DNA from: a bacterium
GTDB taxonomy: Bacteria > Patescibacteriota > Microgenomatia > Daviesbacterales > UBA10151
Reading direction: 5' to 3'
Length of the DNA: 64,000 nt
Assembly: GCA_021786105.1 (NCBI GenBank)
Contig: JAJYNW010000006.1
Location: forward strand, 7,012 to 71,011
The notes under the pieces were generated by a model, which saw nothing but the letters and a program-made list of their open reading frames with translations, was not told the origin of the DNA and made no database searches. The position numbers and the translations under genes are program-made. Numbering within the stretch: the first letter of the stretch is position 1; every line of letters starts with the position of its first letter. Positions 1,334-63,554 of the stretch are shown here, piece by piece.

Positions 1334-2382
1334 ATGATGCCAGCCATAATTTCTGTTGGTATGGCAACAGGGGATAGACTTGTTACAAACACCGATGTTG
1401 ATGTTTGCCTGGGGAAAAAAATTGGGTTCACGAATAGAGTAATGAATGGGGTTGGTATTGAACAAAGATTTTGGGTAAAAGAGGGGCAGGCAACTTCTGA
1501 TTTATGTGTTGGAGCGCTTCGACAGGCAATAGATTCCGCTGGAATAGTGTCTGCTGATATCACCAGCTTGCTTGTAGCTACATCTTCTCCTGATATGCAG
1601 GCAGTCTCTACGGCCGCAGTAATTCAAAAGAAACTGGCTTTGTCTAACCGGATTCTTGCAAGTAATAATAGTGATGCTTGTCCGGGGTTTATTTTTGGGT
1701 TACATAGGGCTTTTACAGGTTTAACAAGTCCTCTTGGAGAAAAAGGTTATTATGGAGTAATTGGCGGGGAAGTAATGAGCCCGGTAATAGGTAAAGATGA
1801 TGAGTTTTCTCATGAAAAGAGAAGAAGAGAATCGATTGCTATTCTAGTCGGAGATGCTGCAGGTGCAGTAATTGCTAAAATGGTTACTCCGGATAAAGAA
1901 GCACCAACAAATATGGGTTTTGCTTTTGGAGCAGACGGGGAATATGCAGACGAATTGGGGGTTGAGGCGGGAGGAAGTAAATTACCGATAAATTTAACAG
2001 TCGTTCAGGAGGGAAGGCTTATCTTCATATGGACGGAAAGGCAATATTTAAGCAGGCCGTAAGAAGGATGTCAGAGGTGGCAAAAGAGGCTTTAGCCAGG
2101 GCAGAGGTTCCGATAGAAGAAATTGATTTTTTTGTACCACACCAGGCAAACGGAAAAATAATTAAAGCGGTAGCAGAAAGTTTAGGAGTTGCGATGGAAA
2201 AAGTAATTGTTATCATCAATAAGTACGGAAATACTTTATCTTCATCGATCCCAATTGCTTTATGCGAAGCTGTTAATAGCGGAAAAATTCGCCGTAATCA
2301 TATGATTGCTACGGCTTCTTTCGGAGCAGGGATAGCATTTGGTGCTGCAGTCCTTCCTATGGTGGGTTTACCTAAATCTTAA
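1334..2382 (+). CDS. fabH: 3-oxoacyl-ACP synthase III (FabH), split by an apparent +1 frameshift near 2008-2031
   Basis: ORFs 1295..2062 and 2029..2382 together give a full FabH. The N-terminal part has the active-site Cys context 'DACPGF'. The C-terminal part has 'HQANGKII', 'GNTLSSSIPIAL', 'ASFGAGIAFGAAV'. The frames join at '..VVQEG / KAYLHMDGKAIFK..'. Confidence 0.8.
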
Positions 2383-6745: not shown

Positions 6746-7303
6746 ATGGTTATTTTCATCGATGAATCAGGCATCCACAAGCAAACAGGTCATTCTACAG
6801 GAGCAGTTGTATATGTTGAGGTCAATAACTTTGAAAAGTTTGATAATAAGCTTAAAAAGATAGAGGAGGATTTAAAAATTAGTTACTTCCATTGGGCGGA
6901 AGAACGATGGTTTATGAAAAATAAATTTCTTTCTCGAATTTTCGATCTTGATTTTACTGTTAAGGTGGCTGTATTTGAAAATCCGGTAAAACCAGATTCT
7001 CTGCTTGAGATTGTATTCCAGCACCTTATTACAGAAAAAACCATCAAAAGTATTTATATCGACGGAGAAAAACCGAAATGGTACGAACATAAACTCAAGA
7101 AAGTATTACGAGATAAAGGTATAGGGCTTAAGAAATTGCGGACAGTAAGAAGTAAATCTGAAGTTGGTATTCAGCTTGCCGATGCTTTAGCAAGCTTAAT
7201 CAGATATTATCATGATAATCCGCAAGAAAAGGATGCTAAAAAGTGGTTTAGTAAGTTGAAAAAAGAGAAAAAGCTGGCTTTCGAACTGTTGGTTAATCAA
7301 TGA
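6746..7303 (+). CDS. DUF3800-family protein (N-terminal 'IFIDESG' motif); paralog of 62801..63373
   Basis: N-terminus 'MVIFIDESGIHKQ' matches the DUF3800 signature as I recall it. About 55% aa identity and ~80% DNA identity at the 5' end with 62801..63373. Confidence 0.6.
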   Translation: MVIFIDESGIHKQTGHSTGAVVYVEVNNFEKFDNKLKKIEEDLKISYFHWAEERWFMKNKFLSRIFDLDFTVKVAVFENPVKPDSLLEIVFQHLITEKTIKSIYIDGEKPKWYEHKLKKVLRDKGIGLKKLRTVRSKSEVGIQLADALASLIRYYHDNPQEKDAKKWFSKLKKEKKLAFELLVNQ

Positions 7304-7333: not shown

Positions 7334-7357
7334 CCACCTAAAGGTGGGGTCAGTTAG
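7334..7357. terminator. GC-rich hairpin ccccacc-taaa-ggtgggg with an A-tract 5' on the plus strand (T-tract on the minus strand)
   Basis: Perfect 7-bp stem immediately after the DUF3800 gene. The U-tract is on the minus-strand side, so it may terminate minus-strand readthrough or act bidirectionally. Confidence 0.5.
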
Positions 7358-7471
7358 TCAGCTAGTTCTTTCGAACTTTTCCCAGCCTGGGAATTTGTCG
7401 CTGATAACTTGTTATAAACGTATACTACCACAAGTACCCTTAAAATACAATCCCAATTCTAGCTTTAAAAA

Positions 7472-8313: not shown

Positions 8314-8404
8314 ACTAGATTAGTATTTCAAAAATCAATCAATAACGCAACTGACCTCAATTATTGTTAACTTCTTTCATCTATTTTTAACTATTATTAA
8401 CTAG

Positions 8405-8477
8405 TGAGCCGGCAGGGGATCGAACCCTGGACCAAGAGCTTAAAAGGCTCCTGCTCTACCGCTGAGCTACCGGCCCA
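8405..8477 (-). tRNA. tRNA-Lys (anticodon UUU)
   Basis: Reverse complement folds as a 73-nt cloverleaf: GGGCCGG-TA-GCTC..GAGC-A-GGAGC-CTTTTAA-GCTCT-TGGTC-CAGGG-TTCGATC-CCCTG-CCGGCTC-A. Anticodon loop is CTTTTAA. Confidence 0.9.
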
Positions 8478-8518
8478 AACCTAATCTGTTTAATCTACTT
8501 TATCTTGCGTCCGGCATT

Positions 8519-8650
8519 ATAGTCGCTTCGTGACTACTCCTGCTCTTCCTGGGATAACCCTGATTTTAACTCATCCGCTGATCGCGGATCAGTATGTAGT
8601 TATCCCGTTAAAGTAAGGTTGCTTACTTTAACCCGCTGAGCTACCGGCCC
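8519..8650 (-). ncRNA. tRNA-Lys-associated structured element A: the first 19 nt of the tRNA-Lys(UUU) 5' end fused to a conserved multi-hairpin sequence
   Basis: Minus-strand reading: GGGCCGGTAGCTCAGCGGG + hairpin AAGTAAG/CTTACTT + GGGATAAC..GTTATCCC + ATCCGC-GATCA-GCGGAT + GAGCAGGAG + hairpin TAGTC..GACTA. A homologous element lies at 44200..44346 with compensatory stem changes. Confidence 0.5.
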
Positions 8651-8813
8651 TCGTCTAAGCACGGTTTATGTTTTCGCTTCAATGAATTGAAGCTTCAACT
8701 TTCACCGGCTTCTCCTCTCAAAATTGCTTCTCAATTTTGGAAAACACAGAAAATCAATCCTGAGTTTAATCAGTATTGTACTAAATTTGCTTTAATTTTG
8801 CTAATATGATCTC

Positions 8814-9776
8814 ATGGTTTTGGGGTTGAATTGGATTGATCTGGTGGTTATTGGGGTGCTTATCCTTTTTGCTTTAGAGGCAGTGGGTAGACCGTTGGTT
8901 TTGGAAAGTCTGGATTTTATCAGCTTTCTTTTGTCTTTCTTTTTCTCCTTTCGGGCTTACAATTTCCCGGCTAAATTTTTTGAAACTCAGTTCCATATTC
9001 CCCACGGATTAAGTTTAGTTTTTGGTTTTATGCTGGTTTGGTTTTTATCTGAAGCTATTTTTTTTCTGCTGGTTAGAATATTCCTGCCAAAAATCCCTAA
9101 GATCAATATTCCCGGGATTAATACTTTATCAATCATTCCGGCACTGCTGCGGGGGCTGATATTTATTGCAATAGCTTTGGTTTTAGTGTCTACTTTTCCC
9201 ATCCAGCCCAATATAAAAAAGAGTGTTTTGGATTCAAAATTAGGCAGCCAAATTCTTAAAGTTTCCTATAACCTGGAAGCTCCGGTTAAACAAGTTTTCG
9301 GCGGTGCGGCTAATGATTCATTAACCTTTTTGACAATTAAACCGAAAACCGACGAGCGGGTGAATTTAGGTTTTCATACTGACCAATTCTCTATCGACGA
9401 GCAATCGGAAAATCTAATGATAGATTTAGTTAACCGGGAAAGAGTCAGCCGGGGGTTAAAAGCTTTGTCGCTTGACGGACGGTTAAGGGAAGTGGGGCGG
9501 GGCCACAGTGCCGACATGCTTAAAAGAGGTTATTTTTCTCATTATTCGCCGGAAGGTTTAACTGTTGCTGACCGGGTAACTAATGCCGGAATTGATTTTC
9601 TAATAGTAGGAGAGAATTTGGCTTATGCTCCTAATGTGGAGCTGGCTCATCAGGGGTTGATGAATTCAGAAGGGCACCGGGCCAATATTTTATCTGCTGA
9701 TTTTAGTAAGATTGGGATAGGTGTTATGGATGGAGGGGTATACGGAAGGATGTTTACCCAAGTATTTAGTAACTGA
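8814..9776 (+). CDS. CvpA-like membrane domain fused to a C-terminal CAP/SCP (PR-1-like) domain
   Basis: N-terminal multi-TM region resembles CvpA. C-terminus has CAP-domain motifs 'GHSADML', 'GENLAY', 'HRANIL..FSKIGIGV'. Confidence 0.55.
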   Translation: MVLGLNWIDLVVIGVLILFALEAVGRPLVLESLDFISFLLSFFFSFRAYNFPAKFFETQFHIPHGLSLVFGFMLVWFLSEAIFFLLVRIFLPKIPKINIPGINTLSIIPALLRGLIFIAIALVLVSTFPIQPNIKKSVLDSKLGSQILKVSYNLEAPVKQVFGGAANDSLTFLTIKPKTDERVNLGFHTDQFSIDEQSENLMIDLVNRERVSRGLKALSLDGRLREVGRGHSADMLKRGYFSHYSPEGLTVADRVTNAGIDFLIVGENLAYAPNVELAHQGLMNSEGHRANILSADFSKIGIGVMDGGVYGRMFTQVFSN

Positions 9777-43952: not shown

Positions 43953-44107
43953 ATAACCTTATTTTACTGTTTGGGTTTCGAACTATTTTATGCCTAAGAA
44001 AAAGAAGAAATTAACTGACATATTATTAACGAACCAGCACTATAACAGCAAAATTAAATCCAGCAGTTGAATTTTTGAAAACCTATAATCCAACTCTGGA
44101 CAAACTG

Positions 44108-44180
44108 TGAGCCGGGTGGGGCTCGAACCCACGACCGAAGGATTAAGAGTCCTTTGCTCTACCAACTGAGCTACCGGCCC
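44108..44180 (-). tRNA. tRNA-Lys (anticodon CUU)
   Basis: Reverse complement: GGGCCGG-TA-GCTC-AGTTGGTA-GAGC-A-AAGGA-CTCTTAA-TCCTT-CGGTC-GTGGG-TTCGAGC-CCCAC-CCGGCTC-A. Confidence 0.9.
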
Positions 44181-44199
44181 ATACAATCATTATCTATCA

Positions 44200-44346
44200 A
44201 TTGTTAAACGTACTTCCTGCAAAAAACCTTCGGCCTTGCTCTTCCTGGGATGACAATTATTTTAAGCTATCCGCTGATCGCGGATTAATTTGTAGTTATC
44301 CCGTTTAAGCCGGTTTACGGCTTTAACCCAACTGAGCTACCGGCCC
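44200..44346 (-). ncRNA. tRNA-Lys-associated structured element B (first 19 nt of tRNA-Lys(CUU) plus conserved hairpins); homolog of 8519..8650
   Basis: Minus-strand reading: GGGCCGGTAGCTCAGTTGGG + hairpin AAGCCG/CGGCTT + GGGATAAC..GTCATCCC + ATCCGC-GATCA-GCGGAT + GAGCAAGG.... Stem 1 differs from element A by fully compensatory changes. Confidence 0.5.
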
Positions 44347-63373: not shown

Positions 63374-63384
63374 AGCGAGGCCAG
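63361..63384. terminator. Hairpin gcctcgc-ttaaa-gcgaggc directly after the DUF3800 paralog, with an A-tract on the plus-strand 5' side
   Basis: Same geometry as the hairpin after the first DUF3800 copy (7334..7357). Confidence 0.45.
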
Positions 63385-63554
63385 TTGTACAGGTAGTACT
63401 AATTTCTTAGAACTCGGCGGCTCACCGTCCTTTGTCCCTGCCAACTTGTTGTAAATGTATTATATCACAATCTGTATTAAAAACTCATCTCAAAATCAAA
63501 ACACCCATAAACTAAGGTTTAATGAGAAAATAAGTCTGGTATAATTTTCCAAGA

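What the first reader, a model, noticed from the sequence alone, without database searches (positions are those of the whole stretch)
8405..8650. Conserved structured element with a partial 5' copy of tRNA-Lys(UUU), next to the intact tRNA
Thirty nt upstream (in transcript orientation) of the complete tRNA-Lys(UUU) is a second copy of its first 19 nt (GGGCCGGTAGCTCAGCGG). Instead of continuing as a tRNA, it runs into ~110 nt of hairpins: AAGTAAG/CTTACTT, GGGATAAC/GTTATCCC, ATCCGC-GATCA-GCGGAT, then GAGCAGGAG, which matches the tRNA D/anticodon-stem junction. The same architecture recurs at the other tRNA-Lys locus with compensatory stem changes, which argues for a conserved RNA structure rather than random decay. 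Candidates are a tRNA-like regulatory RNA, a self-splicing or permuted intron relic, or the attachment region of an integrative element targeting tRNA-Lys 5' halves.
Basis: seen in the sequence. Interest (0 to 1): 0.8.

Follow-up and report, generated by a model that had tools for sequence, protein, structure and literature searches.

The report
Orphan tRNA-Lys fragment with hairpin insert
Upstream of both lysine tRNA genes sits a left-over copy of the tRNA's first third, of the kind left where a selfish nuclease gene lodges in a tRNA gene (that gene is absent here), and its D-loop carries an undescribed 87-base folded element that recurs in related uncultured bacteria.

Summary
On the minus strand, 174 and 166 nt upstream of tRNA-Lys(UUU) and tRNA-Lys(CUU), lies a second copy of tRNA positions 1-19. 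It is interrupted after G18G19 by an 87-88-nt module of three stems (P1, and P2 enclosing P3), then resumes as tRNA positions ~21-31.

Two layers explain it.

1. The partial copy is most likely a mobile-element footprint. In other Microgenomates the same unit reads promoter, orphan tRNA-Lys 5' part, 85-88-aa GIY-YIG nuclease gene whose TAG stop lies inside the tRNA, then intact tRNA-Lys. This was seen in four lineages. One cvpA-linked locus has the gene intact, one has it decayed, and two (one of them this window) have none. tRNA-Asn shows an analogous unit around a protein with a LAGLIDADG-like fold. The window loci look like remnants without the nuclease gene.

2. The D-loop module is a distinct family with no Rfam match. 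I found 18 distinct typical copies plus one divergent orthologue, in Daviesbacteria and related MAGs. It sits upstream of Lys, Thr, Ile, Asn, Pro and Gly tRNAs, never inside an intact tRNA. P1 covaries strongly, and the divergent orthologue also changes P2 and P3 while keeping hairpins. Copy relatedness follows neither tRNA type nor genome, which suggests exchange or mobility.

Its function is unresolved: a tolerated selfish insert, or a leader RNA domain.

The parts
8404..8476 (-). Intact tRNA-Lys(UUU), no encoded CCA
   Evidence: ARAGORN; Rfam RF00005 69.3 bits
8633..8650 (-). Orphan copy of tRNA-Lys positions 1-19 (acceptor 5' strand, D-stem 5' strand, D-loop up to G18G19), identical to the intact gene
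8545..8632 (-). 88-nt D-loop module. P1 hairpin 8632..8607. P2 GGGATAAC 8606..8599 pairs with GTTATCCC 8558..8551. P3 ATCCGC-GATCA-GCGGAT 8589..8573. Tail AGGAAG 8550..8545.
   Evidence: Covariance model R1, 94.7 bits, E 1e-18; pair counts; no Rfam match
8537..8544 (-). AGCAGGAG: the orphan copy resumes (D-stem 3' strand, position 26, anticodon-stem 5' strand), identical to the intact tRNA
8520..8536 (-). GAA-capped hairpin TAGTCAC-GAA-GCGACTA in place of the anticodon arm. It is conserved in orthologue L038 and has analogues in all Lys loci.
   Evidence: E1 versus L038 spacer alignment p~0.000
8477..8519 (-). Spacer between the orphan copy and the intact tRNA. No detectable remnant of a nuclease gene.
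44107..44180 (-). Intact tRNA-Lys(CUU)
   Evidence: ARAGORN; Rfam 72.1 bits
44328..44346 (-). Orphan copy of tRNA-Lys(CUU) positions 1-19 (GGGCCGGTAGCTCAGTTGG), preceded by an extended -10-like TGGTAGAAT read by eye
44241..44327 (-). 87-nt D-loop module, second copy. It is 78% identical to the first and shares the P3 loop GATCA, seen only in this genome.
   Evidence: R1 98.5 bits
44181..44240 (-). AGCAAGG (orphan copy resumes), then the CCGAAGG mini-hairpin with a T-run, then spacer. Homologous to the spacer of L012.
   Evidence: E2 versus L012 p~0.000

Best explanation
The explanation has two layers.

(1) The partial tRNA copy is the orphaned 5' segment of the tRNA gene. It marks the site of a homing-endonuclease-gene (HEG) cassette lodged in the tRNA gene. 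The cassette consists of a nuclease gene plus a replacement copy of the tRNA 5' part. After insertion the order is: promoter, old 5' part (now orphan), cassette, complete tRNA. In this genome both tRNA-Lys loci have lost the nuclease gene. About 170 nt remain: orphan positions 1-19 and ~21-31, a GAA-capped hairpin where the anticodon arm was, and a spacer.

(2) The 87-nt three-stem module at D-loop position 20 of the orphan is a separate, previously undescribed small element family of Microgenomates (CPR). It is found only in orphan or degenerate tRNA fragments and a few non-tRNA sites, never in a working tRNA. Its copies are exchanged among orphans of different tRNA types. I take it to be a tolerated, probably selfish insert. 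It would be co-transcribed in the pre-tRNA leader and cut off by RNase P, and its hairpins would persist because it must fold on its own.

Shown: the anatomy, the recurrence, the covariation, HEG-bearing, HEG-decayed and HEG-less states at cvpA-linked loci, and the mismatch between module relatedness and tRNA type or genome.

Inferred: HEG loss in this genome, the mode of spread, transcription and processing.
For: The GIY-YIG ORF (PF01541, 63.8 bits) lies between an orphan tRNA-Lys 5' part and an intact tRNA-Lys(UUU) in L036, L040, L042 and L045. Its TAG stop lies in tRNA positions 8-10.

The cvpA-linked tRNA-Lys(UUU) locus occurs in four states among Daviesbacteria. L036 has the HEG intact. 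L037 has it decayed (tblastn remnant; sequence). L038 and the window have no HEG but an orphan plus module. L035 has no orphan.

Module family: 13+9 loci from two collection scans gave 18 distinct sequences. 96.5% of cells are paired, against 87.2% in shuffles and 28-44% for slid partners. Nine pairs carry double changes. Orthologue L038 has different sequences in P1, P2 and P3 and still forms hairpins.

Module relatedness ignores tRNA type and genome. The nearest relative of the window UUU copy is a Thr(CGU)-linked copy (86%). The nearest relative of the CUU copy is an Asn-linked one (89%).

In the tRNA-flanked loci the module sits in the orphan D-loop after G18G19. In two loci (L015, L016) no 5' tRNA flank is recognisable. 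The 11 bystander tRNAs in the held loci have no upstream partial copy.
Against: No nuclease gene or detectable remnant lies in either window spacer. HEG loss here rests on comparison with other genomes.

HEG-bearing Lys loci have an intact orphan D-loop with no module, and core-bearing Lys loci have no HEG. The link between the two layers is therefore indirect, except at tRNA-Asn (L024, L008).

The orphan acceptor 5' strand is identical to its partner over the first 16 nt in 7 of 11 Lys loci (11 of 12 are within two mismatches). This includes lineage-specific variants such as GGTCCGG in L036 and GGGTCGG in L045. That is more than a decaying relic should show. It needs gene conversion or selection.

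Hairpin structure kept at an orthologous locus (L038) is what a host-level function would predict.

No mobilising enzyme, terminal repeats or unambiguous target-site duplication were found.

P2 and P3 conservation in the 18 copies is partly imposed by the search patterns.
Confidence: 0.55

Rival explanations
1. Functional cis-acting leader or structural switch. The orphan 5' part competes with the tRNA's own 5' part for the tRNA 3' half. The D-loop module would be a protein- or ligand-binding domain that sets the balance, and so gates tRNA-Lys maturation (or, in HEG-bearing loci, nuclease expression).
For: In all five Lys loci with a recognisable orphan, the alternative fold (orphan 5' strand paired 7/7 with the real 3' acceptor strand) is predicted 4-8 kcal/mol more stable than the canonical fold. 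In the Thr and Ile loci the canonical fold wins. The orphan tracks lineage-specific acceptor variants of its partner. Orientation is always that of the downstream tRNA or ORF. -10-like boxes lie a few nt upstream of the orphan, read by eye. Hairpins are preserved at orthologous L038.
Against: In the non-Lys loci the orphan acceptor strand has drifted (5-6 of 7 pairs). L015 and L016 lack the orphan 5' part altogether. The loop nucleotides conserved in the typical copies are not kept in L038 or in the mini-version in L027. Module relatedness does not follow the locus. Nearest-neighbour energies ignore tRNA tertiary stabilisation and co-transcriptional folding. The promoter scans were not above chance.
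Confidence: 0.25
2. The module is an intervening sequence of a once-functional tRNA. The upstream copy would be a tRNA gene with a D-loop intron or expansion that later became a pseudogene after tandem duplication.
For: The insertion sits exactly at the variable D-loop position after G18G19, and the D-stem is kept around it. The L026 upstream copy still has a perfect T-arm and a partial 3' acceptor strand. Patescibacteria are rich in tRNA introns (PMC13011429).
Against: None of the 19 copies sits in a tRNA with an anticodon. There is no group I/II intron signal on the module. It is far too small for self-splicing. Read by eye, the boundaries show no bulge-helix-bulge geometry. HEG-bearing loci show that orphans arise without the module.
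Confidence: 0.07
3. attL/attR remnant of an integrase-type integrative element or prophage that targets the tRNA-Lys 5' half.
For: Direct repeats of a tRNA segment flanking foreign DNA are the classic signature. Recombinase genes occur near some related tRNA loci: a serine recombinase in L033 and a phage integrase in L038, on the other side of cvpA.
Against: The repeats are only 166-174 nt apart, with no integrase or cargo between them. It is the 5' part that is duplicated, not the 3' part. Where cargo is present it is a small GIY-YIG or LAGLIDADG-fold gene. There were no phage or viral matches.
Confidence: 0.03
4. Chance similarity or simple decay of a tandem tRNA duplicate, with no structured element.
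For: Parts of the orphan 3' of the D-arm do decay and differ between loci.
Against: Four matches against 0.03 expected. R1 hits score 83-107 bits at 19 places. Covariation is far above the shuffled and slid controls.
Confidence: 0.01

Closest known systems
Free-standing homing-endonuclease ORFs that enter a gene together with a duplicate of part of that gene (for example the GIY-YIG ORF plus atp6 terminus of Allomyces mitochondria, and HEG-linked gene-fragment duplications in fungal mitochondrial genomes). The Allomyces case is from my own knowledge. The general theme is what the titles and abstracts of papers listed describe; I did not read them in full.
   Same: A nuclease ORF sits between a displaced partial copy and a complete working copy of the same gene. 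There are presence, decay and absence states between relatives. The partial copy decays.
   Different: Here the host gene is a bacterial tRNA. The duplicated part is the 5' part. The ORF's stop codon lies inside the tRNA. The displaced copy carries an extra structured module. Nuclease activity and homing are untested.
tRNA-gene attachment sites of integrase-type islands and prophages
   Same: A partial tRNA copy lies as a direct repeat next to the intact tRNA.
   Different: It is the 5' part, not the 3' part. The repeats are 170 nt to 1 kb apart. There is no tyrosine or serine recombinase inside.
Group I introns in Patescibacteria tRNA genes (PMC13011429)
   Same: Same phylum, and tRNA genes as targets of selfish elements. 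The tRNA-Asn loci seen here (L008, L024, L027, L029, L030, L033) carry such an intron at position 35/36.
   Different: The module is 87 nt, lies in the D-loop, has no Intron_gpI signal, and sits in a non-functional copy.
Small structured repeats such as REP/BIME elements and IS200/IS605-derived hairpin elements
   Same: Multi-copy, about 90 nt, hairpin-based, with structure conserved more than sequence in P1, and a distribution that does not follow host phylogeny.
   Different: No associated Y1 transposase was seen. No terminal repeats. Strict preference for one position of tRNA-like flanks. Membership was not tested.
tRNA-mimicking leaders and tRNA-like ncRNAs (T-box leaders, YrlA-type Y RNAs)
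   Same: tRNA-like parts in a non-coding RNA next to tRNA biology.
   Different: No Rfam hit to any of them. There is no specifier or antiterminator. The Lys copies have no T-arm.

Membership tests
tRNA (RF00005) | Complete cloverleaf with anticodon arm, T-arm and 3' acceptor strand | tested here: not met
   ARAGORN and Rfam report only the intact genes at 8404-8476 and 44107-44180. Nothing is called on 8520-8650 or 44234-44346, even at E<=10.
HEG cassette with duplicated host-gene segment | Nuclease ORF between the partial and the complete copy of the host gene | tested here: not met
   Not met in the window: no ORF of 50 aa or more and no tblastn remnant. Met in related loci L036, L040, L042 and L045 (GIY-YIG) and in L024 and L008 (LAGLIDADG-fold).
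HEG cassette with duplicated host-gene segment | Presence, decay and absence polymorphism at orthologous loci | tested here: met
   cvpA-linked tRNA-Lys(UUU): L036 intact ORF, L037 decayed ORF, L038 and the window no ORF, L035 no orphan.
HEG cassette with duplicated host-gene segment | The encoded protein cleaves the cassette-free allele of the host gene | not testable with these tools
   [not shown]
Integrase-type att site | Tyrosine or serine recombinase and cargo between the direct repeats | tested here: not met
   166-174 nt between the repeats, with no ORF.
Group I / group II intron | Catalytic core recognisable by a covariance model; exons that rejoin into a functional gene | tested here: not met
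   No Intron_gpI or group II hit on the module at E<=10. The same search method does detect the true group I intron in L008. The flanking 'exons' lack an anticodon.
Any Rfam 15 family | Score at or near the family threshold | tested here: not met
   Gathering-threshold and E<=10 scans found only tRNA and noise on 8380-8760. Seven related loci were also scanned.
Conserved structured RNA or ssDNA motif (generic) | Base pairs kept through compensatory changes in independent sequences | tested here: met
   P1 has double changes in 7 of 9 pairs. The whole structure is 96.5% paired, against 87.2% in shuffles (0 of 500 reach the observed value) and 28-44% for slid partners. L038 changes P2 and P3 as well. 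Caveat: P2 and P3 of the 18 copies were partly fixed by the search patterns.
IS200/IS605-type or REP-type hairpin element | Cognate Y1 (HUH) transposase in the genome; defined cleavage tetranucleotides | not tested
   No transposase was searched for. Only the flanks were inspected: GG on both sides in most copies.

The most novel reading that the evidence does not exclude
The orphan 5' tRNA segment is kept because it works as a built-in competitor strand. By pairing with the 3' half of the downstream tRNA it would create an alternative tRNA-like fold with the 87-nt module displayed at the elbow. That fold would gate whether the transcript yields mature tRNA-Lys, or, in HEG-bearing relatives, a translatable nuclease mRNA whose stop codon lies inside the tRNA. 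This would be an RNA switch built from a tRNA half, with a new sensor or protein-binding domain, in CPR bacteria.
Probability: 0.15. Interest if true: 0.85.

Novelty: new variant of a known kind. Interest (0 to 1): 0.6.

Why it matters
The work bears on three things.

1. It points to a way in which small nuclease genes live inside bacterial tRNA genes without killing them: they bring a spare 5' part, and their reading frame ends inside the tRNA. I did not find this described in the library searches.

2. It adds a well-supported structured element, with covariation and at least 19 copies, to the very thin catalogue of non-coding elements in CPR/Patescibacteria.

3. It explains a class of 'partial tRNA' signals that could otherwise be taken for att sites or split tRNAs.

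If the competitor-strand reading were right, it would be a new type of control of tRNA maturation.

Tried and rejected
- Rfam at the gathering threshold and at E<=10: nothing on the module.
- Viral contig scan and phage BLAST: no match.
- Literature searches for D-loop insertions, tRNA-like RNAs in Patescibacteria, pseudo-tRNAs and GIY-YIG with tRNA genes: nothing matching. Only the group I intron paper was relevant, as background.
- Sigma-70 promoter and terminator scans of both loci: not above chance. The -10-like boxes I mention were read by eye.
- Alignment of the window spacers with the GIY-YIG ORF regions, and tblastn with the GIY-YIG protein: no remnant in the window. Only weak hits of the L038 and L010 spacers to the L037 ORF end (p~0.02, uncorrected).
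- R1 search for further or divergent copies in the held loci: none except L038. The two-hairpin mini-version in L027 is not detected.
- G-U versus A-C asymmetry in the stems, to decide between RNA and DNA and which strand: too few cases and balanced, read.
- Considered and dropped by inspection only: hammerhead, HDV-like and other small ribozyme architectures, integron attC polarity, bulge-helix-bulge splice sites, and an internal promoter in the module.
- My first constrained-fold run had the acceptor register off by one. It was redone.

Full report
**Observation.** The minus strand of 8400-8660 reads: GGGCCGGTAGCTCAGCGG (8650..8633), then an 88-nt insert (8632..8545), then AGCAGGAG (8544..8537). 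A hairpin TAGTCAC-GAA-GCGACTA follows (8536..8520), then a 43-nt spacer, then the complete tRNA-Lys(UUU) (8476..8404).

The insert folds as P1 (GTTAAAGTAAG/CTTACTTTAAC) followed directly by P2 (GGGATAAC/GTTATCCC), which encloses P3 (ATCCGC-GATCA-GCGGAT). It ends in AGGAAG. The same build lies upstream of tRNA-Lys(CUU) (44346..44234 versus 44180..44107). There the D-loop and anticodon-stem letters match that tRNA, and the top of P1 is changed on both strands.

The 15-mer that starts the tRNA occurs four times in the window, against 0.03 expected. ARAGORN and Rfam call only the intact genes. At E<=10 no Rfam family touches the insert. No ORF of 50 aa or more overlaps it. The same sequence is in an NCBI MAG (GCA_027424735.1) and three independent Logan assemblies.

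The repeat is 18 nt at the UUU locus and 19 nt at the CUU locus, and it starts 174 nt upstream of the tRNA, not 30.

**The insert is a family.** One scan of species-representative genomes and one of JGI metagenomes, using patterns taken from the two window copies, returned 13 and 9 loci. Two of these were chance hits (L006, L007). All the others are from Candidatus Daviesbacteria or other Patescibacteria/Microgenomates-type MAGs.

Together with the window copies they give 18 distinct sequences of 84-88 nt. On a hand-checked structure, 96.5% of cells are standard pairs. Column-preserving shuffles give 87.2% (0 of 500 reach the observed value), and slid partners give 28-44%. P1 has changes on both sides in 7 of 9 pairs. 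P2 and P3 barely vary in this set, but my patterns required parts of them, so that says little.

A covariance model (R1) scores the copies at 83-107 bits. It finds no others in the roughly 215 kb held at that point. There are no matches in viral contigs or GenBank phages.

**Where the module sits.** In 13 distinct loci it lies upstream of, and co-oriented with, a tRNA. These are Lys(UUU) x4, Lys(CUU) x2, Thr(GGU) x2, Thr(CGU), Ile(GAU), Asn(GUU), Pro(GGG) and Gly(CCC).

In 11 of these 13 the flanks copy the 5' part of that same tRNA. The module follows G18G19, and the D-stem 3' strand resumes after the AGGAAG tail. L015 and L016 have no recognisable 5' tRNA flank.

The upstream copy never has an anticodon. 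It breaks off between about positions 31 and 38 (Lys, Thr, Ile). In L026 (Asn) it keeps a perfect T-arm and part of the 3' acceptor strand but has a 4-bp stub in place of the anticodon arm.

Three copies have no tRNA nearby. L011 lies between a terminator-like hairpin and the ribosome-binding site of a 63-aa ORF. L013 and L005 are intergenic. In L008 and L024 the cognate tRNA-Asn lies about 0.9 kb downstream, beyond an ORF (see below).

Eleven other tRNAs that happen to lie in the held loci, among them Ser, Trp, Cys, Glu, Arg and Thr(UGU), have no upstream partial copy.

**What the partial tRNA copy is.** Two sets of related loci explain it.

*tRNA-Asn.* In L024 and L008 the order is: orphan 5' part plus module, about 110 nt, a 230-aa ORF, then a second, complete tRNA-Asn that carries a group I intron at 35/36. 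The intron is of the type described for Patescibacteria in PMC13011429.

L027 has the orphan between the ORF and the tRNA. Its D-loop holds a shorter two-hairpin insert of the same plan: G-hairpin-C, GGGA...UCCC, AGGGGGAGC.

*tRNA-Lys.* The window's neighbour gene cvpA (8814-9776) has many Daviesbacteria orthologues. Four were fetched, and all keep tRNA-Lys(UUU) next door.

- L036 has an orphan covering tRNA positions 1 to ~48 with an intact D-loop. It is followed by an 85-aa GIY-YIG ORF (PF01541, 63.8 bits), then the intact tRNA. The ORF's TAG stop is tRNA positions 8-10.
- L037 has an orphan with a 21-nt hairpin inserted in the D-loop. It is followed by a frameshifted remnant of the same ORF, then the tRNA.
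- L038 has the window's architecture: orphan, module, AGCAGGAG, the same TAGTC...GACTA hairpin, spacer, tRNA, and no ORF.
- L035 has no orphan.

Homologues of the GIY-YIG protein from three further lineages show the same unit each time. These are L040 (annotated Levybacteria), L042 (annotated Roizmanbacteria) and L045.

So the partial copy is what remains upstream when a nuclease-gene cassette carrying a replacement 5' tRNA part sits in the gene. Both window loci are the ORF-less state. This last step is an inference. The window spacers show no detectable ORF remnant.

**What the module is.** Three observations favour an exchangeable, possibly mobile insert.

1. Its relatedness follows neither tRNA type nor genome. 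The nearest relative of the window UUU copy is a Thr(CGU)-linked copy from another sample (86%). The nearest relative of the CUU copy is an Asn-linked one (89%). The two window copies are 78% alike. The Lys(UUU) copies of other genomes are 69-80% identical to the window UUU copy.
2. HEG-bearing orphans provide empty sites: CAGCGG-T-AGA against CAGCGG-[module]-AGA.
3. It is found only where an insertion is harmless.

Against a purely selfish relic stands the orthologous L038 copy. It scores only 31 bits against R1, with different sequences in P1, P2 (GGGTAAG/CTTACCC) and P3 (GCGCC-GAA-GGCGC), yet it keeps all three hairpins. The conserved loop letters of the typical copies are not kept there.

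I could identify no mobilising enzyme, no terminal inverted repeats, and only an ambiguous GG...GG flank.

**A feature that a relic does not explain.** The orphan's acceptor 5' strand is identical to its partner over the first 16 nt in 7 of 11 Lys loci, and 11 of the 12 Lys loci compared are within two mismatches. This includes lineage-specific variants: GGTCCGG in L036 and GGGTCGG in L045. The GIY-YIG proteins of these lineages are only about 64-68% identical. This needs gene conversion or selection.

Constrained folding predicts that the orphan strand pairs 7/7 with the real 3' acceptor strand. It also predicts that this alternative fold is 4-8 kcal/mol more stable than the canonical one in all five Lys loci with a recognisable orphan. 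In the Thr and Ile loci the canonical fold wins (unconstrained folds). These energies ignore tertiary structure and folding order, so they define a hypothesis, not a result.

**Comparison with known systems.** The closest known kind is the free-standing homing-endonuclease ORF that enters a gene together with a duplicate of part of that gene. This is known from fungal mitochondria (my own knowledge for Allomyces atp6; the theme is in the abstracts of papers listed, which I did not read in full).

It differs here in several ways. The host gene is a bacterial tRNA. The duplicated part is the 5' part. The reading frame ends inside the tRNA. The displaced copy carries an extra structured module.

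It is not an integrase att site: there is no recombinase and only 166-174 nt lie between the repeats. It is not a group I or II intron, and it does not belong to any Rfam family.

**Verdict.** The tRNA-fragment part has a good explanation of a known kind, in a new setting. The 87-nt module is an undescribed structured element whose role is open: tolerated selfish insert (my preference) or leader or switch domain. Interest 0.6.

Noticed in passing
window 7348-7415 (-) and 63379-63452 (-); ORF 6746-7303 (+): Two DUF3800-II RNA motifs (Rfam RF02961, 73.8 and 55.5 bits). The first lies just past the 3' end of a DUF3800 (PF12686) gene, on the opposite strand, about 1 kb from the tRNA-Lys(UUU) locus.
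   Followed up: no
L036 1132-1389 (-); L040 701-958; L042 701-967; L045 701-958: An 85-88-aa GIY-YIG ORF whose last three codons and TAG stop lie inside the first 10 nt of tRNA-Lys(UUU). RNase P processing of the tRNA would therefore remove the stop codon of the nuclease mRNA.
   Followed up: partly
[not shown]
   Followed up: partly
Window 8520-8536 and ~44226-44232 (-); L010, L012, L022, L027, L036, L040, L045: Short hairpins capped by C-GAA-G or similar triloops recur where the anticodon-stem 5' strand of the orphan should be. Their stems covary (TCAGGC/GCCTGA, CCCGGC/GCCGGG, TCCGGC/GCCGGA, ATCCGCC/GGCGGAT). Some resemble P3 of the module; for example the L036 hairpin is nearly the same as P3 of L022.
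   Followed up: no
L018 ~1354-1420 (-): A second partial 5' copy without a module (GCCGGTGTAGCTT followed by a 50-nt hairpin-containing insert) lies between the module-bearing orphan and tRNA-Thr(CGU). Orphans can therefore be nested.
   Followed up: no
L037 1189-1240 (+): A 21-nt hairpin insert (CCCCGATTAAATCGGGGTCAG) in the orphan D-loop, flanked by a duplicated TCAG. It looks like a repair scar or small insertion with a 4-nt target duplication.
   Followed up: no
L011 2797-2883 (-): One module copy lies with no tRNA-like flanks, between a terminator-like hairpin and the GGAGG plus ATG of a 63-aa ORF with no family match.
   Followed up: partly
Window 8573-8589 and 44269-44285; L012 and L015: Module copies within one genome share private features. 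The P3 loop GATCA occurs only in the two window copies. A P2 mismatch (CAC) and a near-identical spacer are shared by the two Lys loci of MAG Ike-100m-12. This suggests concerted evolution of the UUU and CUU units.
   Followed up: partly
L033 3420-4946 (-); L038 2636-3649 (+): A large serine recombinase lies just downstream of tRNA-Asn in L033, and a phage-type integrase lies next to cvpA in L038. Other mobile elements also use these neighbourhoods.
   Followed up: no
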